In this document: positions 2,218 through 41,596 of the stretch, piece by piece
Layout: the number at the start of each line of letters is the position of its first letter
Position numbering within the stretch: the stretch's first letter is position 1
Origin: Bradyrhizobium sp.
GTDB lineage: Bacteria; Pseudomonadota; Alphaproteobacteria; Rhizobiales; Xanthobacteraceae
Length of the DNA stretch: 64,000 nucleotides
Assembly: GCF_035273305.1 (NCBI RefSeq)
Contig: NZ_DATEPI010000104.1
Span: 4,979 to 68,978 of the forward strand
Direction: 5' to 3'
Position numbers and translations under genes: made by a program
The notes under the pieces: generated by a model
Databases searched by the model: none
What the model was told of the DNA's origin: nothing
What the model saw: only the letters and a program-made list of their open reading frames with translations

Positions 2218-3858
2218 ATGGCGCTGACGCAGAGATTAGAGTTCCGGCAATCGCAGTCGCTGGTGATGACGCCGCAATTGATGCAGGCGATCAAGCTGCT
2301 GCAACTGTCGAATCTCGACCTGTCGGCATTCGTCGAGGAGGAATTGGAGCGGAATCCGCTGCTGGAACGCGCTGAGGGCCCCGAGCCCGCGGTTGCGGGG
2401 GAGCCGGTGCCCGAGCGCGAATTTTCCGACTCCGACCATTCTTCTGGCGACGATGCCGGCACCGAGGGCTCCCAAGGCGGATTGAACTCGGCTGACGGAT
2501 TCGAAGCGGTCCAGGAAGACTGGCTTGCCCACGACCTCGGCACTCGAGCCGAAATCGAGCAGACCCTCGACACACCGCTCGAGAACGTATTTTCCGAGGA
2601 GCCGGCCGAGGCTGCGGCGCGAACCGCCCAGGATGCGGCTCCGACGGCCTACACCGAATGGGGAGGCGGTGCTTCCAACGACGATAGCTACAATCTCGAA
2701 GCCTTTGTCGCGGACGAAGTTACGCTCGGCAGCCATCTGGCTGAACAACTGGCGGTGGCTTTCAACGATCCGGCGCGGCGCATGGTCGGTCAGTACCTGA
2801 TCGATCTCGTGGATGAGGCGGGCTACGTTCCTGCCGATCTCGGGCAGGCTTCCGAGCGGCTTGGCGCCTCGCAACAGGACGTAGAGGCGGTTCTCACGGT
2901 GCTGCAGAAATTCGATCCGCCTGGCGTGTGCGCGCGAAATTTGAGCGAATGCCTCGCGATCCAACTTCGCGAACTCGACCGATACGATCCGGCGATGCAG
3001 GCGCTGGTCGAAAATCTCGATCTCCTGGCCAAGCGCGACATCGCGGCTTTACGAAAACTGTGCGGGGTCGATGATGACGACATCACCGACATGATCGCTG
3101 AAATTCGCCGTCTTGATCCAAAGCCCGGGTTGAAGTTCGGATCGACGCGAACGCAGACCATGGTGCCGGATGTGTATGTGAGGCCGGGACCCGATGGCGG
3201 ATGGCACGTCGAACTCAACAGCGACACGTTGCCGCGCGTGCTGGTCAACCAGACCTATTACACTGAGTTGTCAAAGACGGTTCGCAAGGACGGCGATAAA
3301 TCCTATTTCAGCGATTGTCTGCAGAATGCAACTTGGCTTGTGCGAGCGCTCGATCAGCGCGCCCGCACCATCTTGAAGGTCGCGACCGAAATCGTGCGTC
3401 AGCAGGATGGCTTCTTCGCGCGCGGTGTCGCGCATTTGCGCCCGCTGAACCTCAAGACTGTGGCCGATGCGATCCAGATGCACGAATCGACGGTGTCCCG
3501 GGTCACTGCCAACAAATACATGGCGACCAATCGCGGCAGTTTCGAATTGAAGTATTTCTTCACTGCTTCGATCGCCTCAGCCCACGGCGGCGAAGCTCAT
3601 TCGGCGGAGGCGGTGCGCCACCAGATCAAACAGCTGATCGACATGGAAGAACCAACGGCGATATTATCGGATGATACCATTGTGGAACGATTGCGTGGAT
3701 CCGGTATTGATATTGCCCGGCGTACCGTCGCCAAGTACCGCGAAGCCATGCGCATCCCCTCCTCCGTGCAGCGACGCCGTGATAAGCAAAGCATGCTTGG
3801 TAATGCACTTTCCGCGCCCGCATCGTCAGACCGGTCCCGCGATACGCAGCCTGCCTGA
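2218..3858 (+). CDS. rpoN: RNA polymerase sigma-54 factor
   Basis: Gln/Leu-rich region I (QSQSLVMTPQLMQAIKLLQL), HTH (HESTVSRV), RpoN box ARRTVAKYRE. Confidence 0.98.
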   Translation: MALTQRLEFRQSQSLVMTPQLMQAIKLLQLSNLDLSAFVEEELERNPLLERAEGPEPAVAGEPVPEREFSDSDHSSGDDAGTEGSQGGLNSADGFEAVQEDWLAHDLGTRAEIEQTLDTPLENVFSEEPAEAAARTAQDAAPTAYTEWGGGASNDDSYNLEAFVADEVTLGSHLAEQLAVAFNDPARRMVGQYLIDLVDEAGYVPADLGQASERLGASQQDVEAVLTVLQKFDPPGVCARNLSECLAIQLRELDRYDPAMQALVENLDLLAKRDIAALRKLCGVDDDDITDMIAEIRRLDPKPGLKFGSTRTQTMVPDVYVRPGPDGGWHVELNSDTLPRVLVNQTYYTELSKTVRKDGDKSYFSDCLQNATWLVRALDQRARTILKVATEIVRQQDGFFARGVAHLRPLNLKTVADAIQMHESTVSRVTANKYMATNRGSFELKYFFTASIASAHGGEAHSAEAVRHQIKQLIDMEEPTAILSDDTIVERLRGSGIDIARRTVAKYREAMRIPSSVQRRRDKQSMLGNALSAPASSDRSRDTQPA

Positions 3859-38077: not shown

Positions 38078-38536
38078 TCAGCGTCCGGTCGAACCAAATC
38101 CGCCGCCGCCGCGTTCGGTCGAGGACAGCGACGTCGTCGCAACCAGTTCCGCCCTCACCACGGCCGCGATTACCATTTGCGCGATCCGCTCGCCCCGCCG
38201 AATCGCAAACGGCGCGTCGCCGTGGTTGATTAGGAGAACGGTTATCTCGCCGCGATAATCCGCATCGATCGTGCCGGGGGCATTCAGCACGGTGATGCCG
38301 TGCTTTGACGCGAGTCCCGATCGTGGACGAACCTGCGCCTCGGTGCCTCCGGGCAAGGCCACCGAGATGCCCGTCGGCACCAATACGCGCTGGCCCGGCG
38401 ACAGAGTTATCGGAGAGTCCTCCGGGACGGCAGCGAGCAGGTCGAGTCCGGCGGCGTGGGCGGTCTGATAGGCTGGCAGCATCAGGCCCTGGCCGTGCGG
38501 CAGCCGCCGCACCTCGACTTTGATGGCTGAACTCAC
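38078..38536 (-). CDS. dut: dUTP diphosphatase
   Basis: [37 protein letters not shown]; GTG start overlaps the coaBC stop. Confidence 0.97.
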
Positions 38537-39969
38537 GATTTTCCTCCGACGGTCTCGGCGATGCGCGCGACCAGCGCCGTGGCAACTTCCTGTTTGGTCA
38601 TCACCGGCCAGGAGTCGACTTTGATTTCCCCATCCACGCGGCTCAGCAGATGGACCGTATTGCGGTCGCCGCCCATAACACCCGTATCTGGTGAGACATC
38701 GTTGGCGACGATCCAGTCGCAGCCCTTGCGGGCCAGCTTTGCTTTGGCATTCTCGATCAGCATTTCGGTTTCGGCGGCGAAGCCGATCACGAGCTTTGGG
38801 CGGCCGTCCTTCAATTTTGAAATCGTTGCGAGGATGTCTGGATTTTCGATCAGTTGCAGTGGGGGCATGCCGGCGGAAGTCTTTTTTAGTTTCTGCTCGC
38901 CCTGCTCCGCAACGCGCCAGTCAGCGACAGCCGCCGCGAAGATCGCGATATCCGCGGGAAGAGCGGCTTCCACTCGCCGCAGCATGTCGCGCGCGGATTC
39001 CACATGCTGGACTTTAACGCCAGGGGGATCATCGATATCGACCGGACCGGAAATCAGCGCGACCTCGGCTCCGGCAGTAGCTGCCGCAGCGGCGATCGCA
39101 AACCCCTGTTTCCCGGAAGAGCGATTGGCGATGTAGCGTACCGGATCGATCGGCTCGTGGGTGGGCCCTGCGGTAATGAGAACGCGCTTTCCCGCCAGCG
39201 GTTGCGGCTGCGCCCGATGCAGCAGGCGCTCTGCTGCGGATGCTATCTCGATCGGTTCTGCCATCCGCCCGAGGCCCGCCTCCCCCGCTTCTGCCATTTC
39301 GCCAGTGTTGGGTCCGACCAATGCGACACCGTCCCGTTCGAGCTGGACGACGTTGCGGCGGGTAGCGGCGTTGTTCCACATCAGAGGGTTCGTCGCCGGC
39401 GCGAGCAGGATCGGACGATTGGTGGCGAGCAGAATGGCACTTGCGAGATCGTCGGCAAGACCATTTGCCATCTTCGCCATCAGATCCGCGGTGGCCGGCG
39501 CCACGACAATCAGATCGCACTCGCGCGCCAGCCGGATATGGCCCGCGTCGAACTCGCTTTGCGGGTCGAACAAATCTGTGTAGCAGCGCTCGTTCGAGAG
39601 CGCGCTTGCGGCAAGCGGAGTTACAAATTGCTGCGCCGCTTTGGTCAGCACGCACCGGACGCGGATTCGCCGCTCTTTCATCCTGCGGATCAGGTCAAGG
39701 GCCTTATAGGCGGCAATGCCGCCGCCGATGATCAGTGTAACCCGAGCCTTGTCGAACACGTCAGGGCGGCTTGGGCCGCGCATAGATGCCTGGACAGGGC
39801 GTGGAATGGCTTGCGGCTGCGTGGCTTCGAATTCGTAGGGCACACCTTCTATGGTTTGCCGCAGGATTACCCGGACCTCCTCCTCGACAGAACGGCCATT
39901 CTTGGCCGAACGAAGCCGCAGATAGGTCTTGATGGTCTCGTCGAGCTTGCGGATCGTTATGCTGGCCAT
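38533..39969 (-). CDS. coaBC: Bifunctional CoaBC (Dfp) with N-terminal FitA/Arc-like RHH domain
   Basis: CoaC: [26 protein letters not shown]. CoaB: [48 protein letters not shown]. Residues 1-42 are RHH-like. Confidence 0.95.
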
Positions 39970-39985
39970 CGGCAGGGTCCAAATG

Positions 39986-40024
39986 TGATATCAATGATAC
40001 CACATTTTGCAATCATTGCAATCA
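39986..40024. promoter_or_regulatory. Four-box operator-like array overlapping a predicted coaBC promoter
   Basis: TGATATCA(39986)-A-TGATACCA(39995)-CATTT-TGCAATCA(40008)-T-TGCAATCA(40017). Minus strand gives TTGCAA(40021-40016)-N16-TATCAT(39999-39994) with extended -10 TG. Confidence 0.7.
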
Positions 40025-41596
40025 AAGCTGGCGCACCGCAAACAGGATAGCGATGAAGGTCGCGGCGATCACCCAAAGCGCCAGCGTACGCCACCGGCTC
40101 TTCCGGCCCTCGGTTCGTCCCATGGCCGCAATCGTTTCGGGCGCCAGTCTGAGACCCTCGCGGCTCATGGTCTCCATCTGCTCGATCACGGCAACCGAAC
40201 GCGCCGCAATGGTCGGCAGGCCGCTCATGACGCGGCCGAGTTCGCCGGCGCCGGACAGCGCGCCTTGAATGCGGCCGACCGGCCCGAGGTTGCGCTCGAT
40301 CCATTCGCGAACCACGGGATCGGCGATTTTCCAGATATCAAGTTTCGGGTCGAAGCTGCGGGCAACTCCCTCGACCACGACCATGGTCTTTTGCAACAGG
40401 ATCAATTCAGGCCGGGTGCGCATGTCGAACAGGCCCGTGACCTCGAGCAACAGCGTCAGCAACTTCGCCATTGAGATATCTTCGGCAGTGCGGTTGTGTA
40501 TCGGCTCGCCGATCGCGCGGATCGCCTGAGCAAAATTCTCGACCGAATGATGCCCCGGCACATAGCCGGCCTCGAAATGCACCTCCGCGACGCGCCGATA
40601 GTCCCGGGTGATGAACCCGAGAAGAATCTCTGCGAGGAAGCGCCGCTCCTTGCCGCCGAGTCGGCCCATAATGCCAAAATCCACCGCGACCAGGCGGCCG
40701 GCTTCATCAAGAAACAGATTGCCCGGATGCATATCGGCATGAAAAAAGCCGTCGCGCAAAGCATGGCGCAAGAAGCTCTGGATCACCTTGCGCCCGAGGT
40801 CCGGCAGATCCACGTTCGATTGTGCCAGGCGCGCATGGTCGCTGAGCGCGATGCCGTCGATCCACTCCATGGTCAGCACGTTGTGGGTAGTGCGATCCCA
40901 ATCGACGGCGGGCACGCGAAAGTCCGGGTCGTCGCGCGTATTCTCCGCCATTTCCGAAAGCGCCGCGGCTTCCAGCCGCAGATCCATCTCCATCGCAACC
41001 GAGCGCGACATGGTGTTGATGACTTCGACCAACCGAAGCCGGCGCGCCTCCGCCGAATAAGTTTCGGCGTTGTGCGCGACAAAGAAAAAGTCGCCGAGGT
41101 CGCGACGAAAGCGTGCGGCAACGTTGGGCCGAAGCACCTTGACCGCCACCGGTTTGCGCACGCCATCCTGCTCGGTTTCAGCGCGATGTACTTGCGCGAT
41201 CGAGGCCGCGGCCACGGCAGGACCAAGGCTTGCAAATGACAGGGCCAGCGGTCGCTCCAGCGACTGCGCGATGACGGCCTCGGCCTCGCTTTGCGAGAAC
41301 GGCGGCAGCCGGTCCTGCAAGCTTTCCAGATCGCGCGCCATCGCCACGCCGACCACATCGGGGCGCGTGGCTAGAAATTGGCCGAGCTTCAGATAGGCTG
41401 GCCCTAGCCGCGTCAATGCGCGCGACAGCCGCGGGCCGGATTTCGCGCCGGGACGCTCGATAATACGCGCCAGTCGCAGTGCCAATTGCCCGGGCGGAGG
41501 CACCAGTGACGGATCGACAACGCCGAACACGCCCTCGCGCGCGAATACGAAGCCGGCGCGGGCCAGCCGCGCGATGTGGGTCAACGCCGAGATCAC
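40022..41596 (-). CDS. ubiB: Ubiquinone biosynthesis kinase-like protein
   Basis: [47 protein letters not shown]. Confidence 0.96.

What the first reader, a model, noticed from the sequence alone, without database searches (positions are those of the whole stretch)
39986..40024. AT-rich four-box array with 9/22-bp periodicity between ubiB and coaBC
Boxes TGATATCA, TGATACCA, TGCAATCA and TGCAATCA form two pairs with 1-nt spacers, and the pairs are offset by 22 bp (about two helical turns). The region also has the palindromes AAATGTG...CACATTT (39981-40007) and TTGCAATCATTGCAA (40007-40021). TGCAATCA differs by one base from the Neisseria FitA half-site TGCTATCA (recalled). The array overlaps TTGCAA-N16-TATCAT, and the last box includes the ubiB stop codon. 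This density is out of character in GC-rich DNA.
Basis: partly seen in the sequence, partly recalled or inferred. Interest (0 to 1): 0.75.

Follow-up and report, generated by a model that had tools for sequence, protein, structure and literature searches.

The report
Self-repressing CoaBC with antitoxin-derived operator
The four AT-rich boxes are most likely the DNA target of a toxin-antitoxin-type DNA-binding domain fused to the front of the essential coenzyme-A enzyme CoaBC; they sit on that gene's own promoter, so the enzyme probably switches off its own gene, an arrangement I found in no searched paper.

Summary
Window 39986-40024 holds four 8-bp boxes in two 17-bp units that are 22 bp apart. 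It is the most AT-rich 44 bp of the window.

The genes lie on the minus strand. The boxes fill the 52-bp gap between ubiB and coaBC-dut and overlap a sigma-70-type promoter (TTGCAA-16-TGgTATCAT). In Bradyrhizobium USDA 110 a published dRNA-seq start site maps to the last base of the homologous box B.

CoaBC here begins with a FitA-like ribbon-helix-helix (RHH) domain, followed by a roughly 30-residue disordered linker.

- 103 of 104 distinct RHH-coaBC upstream regions carry TGATWGCA-n-TGCWATCA. None of 20 unfused coaBC genes of the same family does.
- In 15 Bradyrhizobium genomes the motif occurs only at coaBC.
- Free-standing RHH antitoxin + PIN toxin pairs in distant phyla, with RHH domains 61-68% identical, carry the same palindrome about 55 bp before their start codon.

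So the operator travels with the RHH domain, not with coaBC. The best reading is an antitoxin DNA-binding domain, captured together with its operator, that makes CoaBC repress its own promoter (confidence 0.8). Binding itself has not been tested. No wider regulon was found.

I class it as a new variant of a known kind (enzyme-repressor fusions such as PutA and BirA). Interest 0.7.

The parts
40008..40024 (-). Operator unit A: two 8-bp boxes, TGATTGCA a TGATTGCA on the coding strand. Its first three bases are the ubiB stop codon TGA (40024-40022). It also holds the -35 hexamer.
   Evidence: It scores 22.3 bits with a matrix built from orthologues only, the 2nd-best hit in the 4.5-Mb genome. The homologous unit is conserved in relatives.
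39986..40002 (-). Operator unit B: TGGTATCA t TGATATCA, an inverted repeat that covers the -10 hexamer and the predicted start site.
   Evidence: It scores 19.0 bits, the 3rd-best hit in the genome and 22 bp from unit A; this is the only such pair in the genome. Relatives show a palindrome-preserving double change, TGATAGC..GCTATCA <-> TGATATC..GATATCA.
39981..40007 (.). Extended 27-bp imperfect palindrome around unit B (12 of 13 per arm). The extension is lineage-specific.
   Evidence: Similar extended arms are seen in L011, L005 and L009 only.
40016..40021 (-). -35 hexamer TTGCAA.
   Evidence: Promoter scan. The homologous TTGCA is called as -35 for the mapped USDA 110 start site.
39994..40002 (-). 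Extended -10 element: TG g TATCAT.
   Evidence: Promoter scan. The homologous TAGCAT is called as -10 in USDA 110.
39986..39986 (-). Predicted transcription start of coaBC-dut, inferred by homology and not measured in this organism. The leader would be about 17 nt.
   Evidence: The USDA 110 start site Bja_TSS_1533 (813828/813829, minus strand) falls on the last A of box B or the next base, so the window equivalent is 39986 or 39985.
39853..39969 (-). Codons 1-39 of coaBC: the FitA-like ribbon-helix-helix DNA-binding domain.
   Evidence: PF22513 at 55.1 bits (cut-off 27), E 7e-15. FitA structures 2H1O/2BSQ are the best solved relatives. dN/dS is about 0.2 and S3, T5, R7 are invariant. The AF2 model has helices at 11-24 and 28-40.
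39748..39852 (-). Codons 40-74: variable, Pro/Gln-rich flexible linker.
   Evidence: AF2 pLDDT is about 31-33 for residues 46-73. The region is poorly conserved in alignment A1.
38533..39747 (-). Codons 75-478 plus the stop codon: the CoaC (flavoprotein) and CoaB (DFP) catalytic parts. This is the only coaBC in the genome.
   Evidence: TIGR00521 at 393.8 bits (cut-off 219.7); PF02441 and PF04127. One match in G000.
38078..38536 (-). dut (dUTPase). Its GTG start overlaps the coaBC stop by 4 nt (GTGA), so it is probably in the same operon.
   Evidence: PF00692, E 8e-32. The overlap was read.
40022..41596 (-). ubiB, the upstream gene. Its stop codon lies inside operator unit A.
   Evidence: TIGR01982 at 520 bits.

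Best explanation
The four boxes are the operator of a self-regulated coaBC-dut promoter.

CoaBC in this Bradyrhizobium carries an N-terminal FitA-type ribbon-helix-helix (RHH) domain on a flexible linker of about 30 residues. RHH domains pair into dimers and insert a two-stranded beta-sheet into the major groove.

I infer that one dimer binds each 8-bp TGATWGCA box. The boxes sit 9 bp apart within a unit, and the units are 22-23 bp apart, so they lie on one face of the helix. Unit A covers the -35 element and unit B covers the -10 element and the start site, so occupancy should exclude RNA polymerase and give negative autoregulation.

Domain and operator were captured together from a FitAB/VapBC-type toxin-antitoxin cassette. 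The oligomeric enzyme body now stands where the toxin stood, tethering several RHH dimers.

Shown here: the domain, its selection, the motif, its strict co-occurrence with the domain, its uniqueness in the genome, and the promoter and start site in an orthologue.

Inferred: DNA binding, the sign of regulation, stoichiometry, and any response to a ligand.
For: 1. Domain. PF22513 FitA-like RHH, E 7e-15. FitA is the best solved relative. AF2 gives an extended N-terminus plus two helices, then a disordered linker. dN/dS is about 0.2 and the strand residues S3, T5, R7 are invariant.

2. Conservation. 103 of 104 distinct fused upstream regions have a site of at least 18 bits and 95 have two or more. 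Neighbour spacings are 22 bp (46 cases), 23 bp (35) and 9 bp (13).

3. Co-occurrence. 20 of 20 further fused genes score 19-29.6 bits, while 0 of 20 unfused genes of the same family exceed 9.1 bits. The same holds in a second family. On the tree of the catalytic part, the fusion state changes at least 4 times.

4. The motif follows the RHH, not coaBC.
- 17 of 21 free-standing RHH antitoxin + PIN toxin pairs, nearly all from other phyla or classes, carry TGATTGCAnTGCAATCA about 55 bp upstream.
- In G267 the palindrome sits before a split-off RHH gene rather than before the unfused coaBC.

5. Single target. In G000 the two boxes are the 2nd and 3rd best hits and the only close pair. In 15 Bradyrhizobium genomes of up to 9.9 Mb every hit with up to 1 mismatch lies just upstream of coaBC, and the reversed control gives 0.

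6. Promoter. TTGCAA-16-TGgTATCAT. The USDA 110 dRNA-seq start site maps to the end of box B, with -35 and -10 inside units A and B (PMC4842269 supplements).

7. Palindrome-preserving double substitutions in unit B.
Against: - There is no binding, footprint or expression measurement for any member.
- The start site is taken from an orthologue.
- USDA 110 proteomics found 12 CoaBC peptides, none from the first ~100 residues, so translation of the RHH is inferred from selection, not seen.
- The window's own boxes are weaker than the consensus (19.0 and 22.3 bits against up to 29.6), and its unit A is a direct repeat.
- One fused gene (L051) has no site within 150 bp.
- Much of the co-occurrence is shared ancestry. 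Only a handful of independent gain or loss events support it.
Confidence: 0.8

Rival explanations
1. The RHH-CoaBC protein binds the boxes but activates rather than represses, or acts in both ways depending on occupancy.
For: Sequence alone does not give the sign of regulation. Two units per promoter could allow graded or dual effects.
Against: The units overlap the -35, the -10 and the mapped start site, which is the classic repressor position. The ancestral antitoxins are autorepressors (established knowledge of type II toxin-antitoxin systems; review PMC3920265).
Confidence: 0.07
2. Relic: the boxes survive only because they double as -35/-10 promoter elements inherited from a toxin-antitoxin cassette. 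The RHH is a passive N-terminal tag that no longer binds DNA.
For: TTGCAA and TAKCAT lie inside the left halves of units A and B. No binding data exist.
Against: The right halves of the palindromes, which are not promoter hexamers, are conserved too and change in a palindrome-preserving way. The RHH is under purifying selection with invariant strand residues. Domain and motif are lost together.
Confidence: 0.07
3. A different trans-acting protein binds the boxes, for example a free-standing FitA-like antitoxin encoded elsewhere. The fused RHH does something else.
For: Free-standing antitoxins with the same operator exist in nature.
Against: No second operator of this kind exists in G000 or in 15 Bradyrhizobium genomes, so there is no such cassette with its own operator there. 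The motif tracks the fused domain gene by gene.
Confidence: 0.04
4. The palindromes act as nucleic-acid hairpins: a ubiB terminator or a leader RNA structure.
For: Inverted repeats with compensatory changes would also fit a hairpin.
Against: The terminator scan finds nothing and there is no T-run. The stems would be AT-rich, 7-8 bp, with 1-3-nt loops. Direct-repeat and three-box arrangements at a 9-bp period cannot pair. The mapped start site lies at the 3' end of unit B, so the coaBC mRNA lacks the boxes.
Confidence: 0.02

Closest known systems
FitA of the FitAB toxin-antitoxin system (RHH antitoxin + PIN toxin), Neisseria gonorrhoeae; PDB 2H1O, 2BSQ
   Same: Same Pfam family (PF22513), and FitA is the best solved relative. 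N-terminal strand A-S-x-x-I-R-x-L. Palindromic operator in its own promoter. Several RHH dimers are held together by a partner protein (review PMC3920265). Closer free-standing relatives (61-68% identical) carry the identical TGATTGCAnTGCAATCA operator.
   Different: There is no PIN toxin gene and no toxin-binding tail. The RHH is joined in frame to an essential enzyme. The operator is doubled or tripled, whereas the free-standing pairs mostly have one unit. The FitA half-site TGCTATCA is recalled from memory and could not be checked.
PutA (proline utilisation A) of enterobacteria
   Same: An N-terminal RHH domain is fused to a metabolic enzyme, and the protein represses its own (put) promoter. 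This is established knowledge and was not tested here.
   Different: The enzyme and pathway differ. PutA's RHH is not FitA-like. PutA is released from DNA by proline-dependent membrane binding, and no such signal is known here. PutA controls a divergent putA-putP region.
BirA and NadR (enzyme-repressors of cofactor pathways)
   Same: A cofactor-biosynthesis enzyme carries a DNA-binding domain and controls genes of its own pathway.
   Different: They use winged-helix or HTH domains, their corepressor is the enzyme's own product or intermediate, and their targets are other operons. Here the domain is an RHH, no ligand is known, and the only target is the enzyme's own promoter.
RHH repressors with tandem short boxes: MetJ (8-bp metboxes), omega (7-bp heptads in direct or inverted order), Arc, CopG
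   Same: One RHH dimer per short box. Boxes are tandem at a period of about 8-11 bp, in direct or inverted orientation, with cooperative binding (established knowledge).
   Different: Those are small free-standing proteins. Here cooperativity would come from the enzyme oligomer (inferred).

Membership tests
FitA-like ribbon-helix-helix domain (Pfam PF22513) | Sequence match above Pfam's gathering score | tested here: met
   55.1 bits against a cut-off of 27, E 7e-15, residues 2-39.
FitA-like ribbon-helix-helix domain (Pfam PF22513) | Strand-helix-helix secondary structure | tested here: inconclusive
   The AF2 monomer gives helices 11-24 and 28-40 at pLDDT about 80. The N-terminal strand is extended but unpaired, as expected for a single chain of an obligate dimer.
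FitA-like ribbon-helix-helix domain (Pfam PF22513) | Dimerisation and sequence-specific DNA binding | not testable with these tools
   Needs EMSA or footprinting. The indirect support is strict co-occurrence with the palindrome.
Type II toxin-antitoxin antitoxin (FitA/VapB of a FitAB/VapBC pair) | Cognate PIN toxin gene immediately downstream | tested here: not met
   The RHH continues in frame into CoaC/CoaB. Real pairs with PIN toxins were seen only in other genomes.
Type II toxin-antitoxin antitoxin (FitA/VapB of a FitAB/VapBC pair) | C-terminal toxin-binding tail (e.g. ...FKPFGGVELELPPR...) | tested here: not met
   The tail is present in the free-standing relatives. Here it is replaced by a Pro/Gln-rich linker.
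Type II toxin-antitoxin antitoxin (FitA/VapB of a FitAB/VapBC pair) | Palindromic operator in its own promoter | tested here: met
   Units A and B lie over the -35, -10 and start site. They have the same sequence as the operators of free-standing pairs.
Enzyme-repressor fusions ('trigger enzymes': PutA, BirA, NadR) | DNA-binding domain covalently joined to an active metabolic enzyme | tested here: met
   One ORF of 478 aa. Its catalytic part is a full CoaBC equivalog and the only copy in the genome.
Enzyme-repressor fusions ('trigger enzymes': PutA, BirA, NadR) | Demonstrated repression of a target promoter | not testable with these tools
   Only the position of the sites supports it.
Enzyme-repressor fusions ('trigger enzymes': PutA, BirA, NadR) | DNA binding modulated by the enzyme's substrate or product | not testable with these tools
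   No evidence either way.
CoaBC (TIGR00521) | Equivalog model above cut-off, with both CoaC and CoaB domains | tested here: met
   393.8 bits against 219.7; PF02441 and PF04127.
Sigma-70-type promoter | -35 and -10 hexamers with 16-18-nt spacing and a mapped start site | tested here: inconclusive
   The hexamers are present, 9 of 12 plus TG. The start site is mapped only in the USDA 110 orthologue. No reads were available for this genome.

The most novel reading that the evidence does not exclude
A mobile FitAB/VapBC-type toxin-antitoxin cassette was domesticated at least twice independently, in the Bradyrhizobium family and in a second family of the order. Each time, loss of the toxin fused the antitoxin's DNA-binding domain and operator onto the essential enzyme CoaBC.

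The CoaBC oligomer has taken over the toxin's role as the scaffold or corepressor that sets operator affinity. Enzyme assembly state or ligand occupancy (CTP, 4'-phosphopantothenate, cysteine, CoA thioesters) would then tune coaBC-dut transcription. That would be a transcriptional control point for coenzyme-A synthesis, which is otherwise known to be controlled mainly by feedback on pantothenate kinase.
Probability: 0.3. Interest if true: 0.85.

Novelty: new variant of a known kind. Interest (0 to 1): 0.7.

Why it matters
Control of coenzyme-A synthesis in bacteria is understood mainly as feedback inhibition of pantothenate kinase. I know of no transcriptional regulator of coaBC, and the library searches found none for this fusion.

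This would be a widespread, self-contained autoregulatory device on an essential enzyme. About 960 clusters of fused proteins (clustered at 90% identity) are recorded, and every one in the top 120 that carries a name is called plain CoaBC. The hosts include agriculturally important nitrogen-fixing Bradyrhizobium and relatives such as Nitrobacter, Afipia, Tardiphaga and Pseudolabrys.

It is also an unusually clean case of a toxin-antitoxin module being domesticated, because both the DNA-binding domain and its cognate operator can still be recognised in free-living cassettes of distant phyla.

Practically, it makes a sharp prediction: one protein, one 40-bp target, a single site per genome. That is easy to test, and it offers a compact autoregulated promoter/operator part.

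Tried and rejected
- The recalled FitA half-site: the library search and a look-up of PubMed id 16982615 gave nothing usable. It stays a recollection.
- A wider regulon:
  - A matrix scan of the whole 4.5-Mb genome gave only within-ORF, unpaired hits elsewhere. The best, at C99:3708, lies inside what reads like an acyl-CoA dehydrogenase ORF (my reading of the flanking translation, not checked).
  - A pattern scan of 15 Bradyrhizobium genomes hit only coaBC. Rejected.
- Hairpin or terminator reading: rejected on the terminator scan, the direct-repeat arrangements and the start-site position. I did not run a folding calculation.
- An ancestral toxin-antitoxin cassette at this very spot: the pairs between ubiB and coaBC in genus g15 occur in 2 of 6 species only. 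They are therefore local insertions, not the ancestor of the Bradyrhizobium fusion.
- A conserved internal start codon that would give an RHH-less CoaBC: none is conserved in alignment A1.
- The AF2 monomer cannot show the dimeric beta-sheet, and no fold search was run.

Full report
**What is in the sequence**

Both flanking genes run on the minus strand.
- ubiB (41596..40022) ends with a TGA at 40024-40022.
- A 478-codon ORF starts at 39969.

On the coding strand the 52-bp gap reads TGA-TTGCA a TGATTGCA aaatg TGGTATCA t TGATATCA catttggaccctgccg ATG.

They form two 17-bp units, A at 40008-40024 and B at 39986-40002, with centres 22 bp apart.
- The paired-box pattern occurs nowhere else in the 64 kb, against a shuffle expectation of 0.04.
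- The 44-bp stretch 39981-40024 has GC 29.5% in a 61% window, and no 44-bp stretch is lower.
- A consensus scan finds TTGCAA-16-TATCAT with an upstream TG at 40021..39994 and no terminator.

**The gene behind the boxes**

The ORF is a complete CoaBC: TIGR00521 at 393.8 bits, with flavoprotein and DFP domains from residue 75 onward. Residues 2-39 are a significant FitA-like ribbon-helix-helix (RHH) domain (PF22513, E 7e-15).
- FitA (2H1O/2BSQ) is the best solved relative.
- AF2, run on a 42-sequence alignment, gives two helices (11-24, 28-40) after an extended N-terminus, a disordered linker at 46-73 (pLDDT about 32), and then the CoaC Rossmann fold.
- It is the only coaBC in the genome.
- dut follows with a 4-nt GTGA overlap.
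- Across 51 orthologues the RHH codons have dN/dS of about 0.2, and A2, T5 and R7 are invariant (S3 in 48 of 51, K8 in 49). The domain is therefore translated and under constraint.

**Distribution of the fusion**

- The fusion is present in 22 same-genus genomes with a full-length match. Record titles show that the genus is Bradyrhizobium.
- It is present in roughly 65 of 119 genomes of the family.
- It is absent from all 16 other families first sampled.
- It is present again in part of one further family of the order (f28).
- About 960 protein clusters (at 90% identity) share this architecture. In the top 120 listed, every name given is plain CoaBC.

**Conservation of the boxes and co-occurrence with the domain**

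Orthologous spacers show TGATTGCAnTGCAATCA right after the ubiB stop, and TGATAGCAtcGCTATCA 22-23 bp further on.

I built a position matrix from 62 orthologous sites, leaving the window out.
- In G000 the window's two units are the 2nd and 3rd best hits in 4.5 Mb and the only close pair.
- Twenty further fused genes, not used for the matrix, all score 19-29.6 bits. Twenty unfused coaBC genes of the same family peak at 9.1 bits.
- The fused members of family f28 carry the motif at 19.0-29.3 bits (29.3 in three of the four), and its unfused members do not.
- Over all loci, 103 of 104 distinct fused upstream regions have a strong site and 95 have two or more. Neighbour spacings are 22 bp (46 cases), 23 bp (35) and 9 bp (13).
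- More distant genera use three boxes at a 9-bp period (TGATTGCA t TGATTGCA a TGCAATCA). The window's direct-repeat unit A is therefore a normal variant.
- Unit B shows palindrome-preserving double changes, TGATAGC..GCTATCA <-> TGATATC..GATATCA.
- On a tree of the catalytic part, the fusion state changes at least 4 times on well-supported branches. One case is a fused/unfused sister pair within one genus.

**The operator belongs to the RHH, not to coaBC**

A scan of genome contigs with the RHH alignment returned fused genes, and also 21 free-standing antitoxins of about 80 aa. These come from Acidobacteriota, Gemmatimonadota, Gammaproteobacteria, Nitrospinaceae, Spirochaetia and others.
- They are 61-68% identical to the window's RHH.
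- For 16 of the 21 a PIN-like toxin ORF was picked up by pattern just after the antitoxin. One of these pairs was confirmed as FitA-like RHH + PIN by Pfam.
- Seventeen of the 21 have TGATTGCAnTGCAATCA at 18-29.6 bits, mostly 52-61 bp before the start codon and mostly as a single unit.

In G267 (family f28) the layout is: ubiB stop - TGACAGCAaTGCTGTCA - RHH gene - RHH antitoxin - PIN toxin - unfused coaBC. The palindrome stays with the RHH gene.

Two species of another family have an RHH + PIN pair wedged between ubiB and coaBC, and four sister species do not.

The f28 RHH is 67% identical to the free-standing antitoxins but only 49% identical to the Bradyrhizobium-family RHH, which is itself 65% identical to the antitoxins. 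This suggests more than one capture from one mobile toxin-antitoxin family. On 40 residues, however, it is only a suggestion.

**Promoter evidence from an orthologue**

The source is the B. japonicum USDA 110 dRNA-seq study (PMC4842269).
- coaBC is bll0759 (483 aa, starting MASLTIRKLD).
- Bja_TSS_1533 at 813828 (minus strand) is its gene start site. Scores are 0.68 in nodules and 0.74 free-living, both above the authors' 0.4 cut-off.
- The authors' RpoD-like promoter call puts the -35 in TTGCA of unit A and the -10 in TAGCAT of unit B. The start falls at the last A of unit B.
- Proteomics in that study found 12 CoaBC peptides, none from the N-terminal ~100 residues.

**Regulon**

With up to 1 mismatch, TGATWGCANTGCWATCA occurs in 15 Bradyrhizobium genomes (up to 9.9 Mb) only immediately upstream of coaBC. 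The reversed control gives zero. This is a one-gene, or one-operon, autoregulatory site.

**Mechanism**

Shown: the domain, the operator, their linkage, the promoter overlap, and the single target.

Inferred:
- RHH dimers formed between CoaBC subunits bind one box each.
- The enzyme oligomer tethers them, as FitB does for FitA.
- Occupancy of -35, -10 and +1 blocks RNA polymerase, which holds CoaBC (and Dut) at a set level.
- Whether pathway ligands modulate this is open.

**Literature and earlier notes**

No held paper combines CoaBC or phosphopantothenoylcysteine with ribbon-helix-helix, or CoaBC with antitoxin, Bradyrhizobium or Rhodopseudomonas.

Earlier notes of this scan on this genome (e1-5273426, e1-5273427), and a follow-up on another genome (e1-4179055), reach the same reading. 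I re-derived it here, and those notes are not independent evidence.

**Limits**

- There are no binding or expression data.
- The recalled FitA half-site could not be verified.
- One fused gene lacks a nearby site (L051).

Noticed in passing
L131 (G267) 1529-2520; L023 (G038) 2697-3400; L106 (G213): Complete FitA-like RHH antitoxin + PIN toxin pairs sit exactly between ubiB and an unfused coaBC in two unrelated lineages. In G038 the toxin's stop overlaps the coaBC start by 4 nt. G267 has two tandem RHH genes before the toxin. This spot seems prone to toxin-antitoxin insertion or replacement.
   Followed up: partly
L009 (G024), between operator unit B and the coaBC ATG: An insertion of about 60 bp with a ~20-bp inverted repeat (gagcatgatc..ccggaaaag / cttttccggatcatgct) lengthens the leader. 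It looks like a small REP/MITE-like element.
   Followed up: no
L051 (G146), upstream of fused coaBC: The only fused gene without an operator within 150 bp. The upstream DNA looks like inserted repeat sequence. The operator may lie further upstream or may have been lost.
   Followed up: no
Window ~39925-39965 (+); USDA 110 position 813802 (+): The USDA 110 study lists an antisense start site (score 0.70, free-living) inside the RHH-coding 5' end of bll0759, with a TTTGAC...GATGGTT promoter. The window has a similar TCTTGAT-N-GATCGTTA on the + strand. This could be a divergent antisense transcript running across the operator.
   Followed up: no
The same ...MAE.GE.G.GRM... motif is invariant in fused orthologues (A1) and also present in an unfused orthologue (G038). 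It is therefore a lineage trait unrelated to the fusion.
   Followed up: partly
Window 40022-40024 and orthologous positions: In most of the Bradyrhizobium spacers inspected, the ubiB stop codon TGA is the first three bases of operator unit A (about 15 of 22; in some the stop lies further upstream). There the end of ubiB and the coaBC operator constrain each other.
   Followed up: partly
G371 (L103, L114), 1.5-Mb AT-rich genome of family f28: A strongly reduced genome keeps the RHH-CoaBC fusion (MTNITLRNV...) and a degenerate three-box array (TGCAATTA a TGAAATTA t TGCTATCA).
   Followed up: no
G012:C1:663151-664576; G033; G063; G073: coaBC appears split across two or more frames in these genomes. 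The cause could be a frameshift or an assembly error, and I did not examine it.
   Followed up: no
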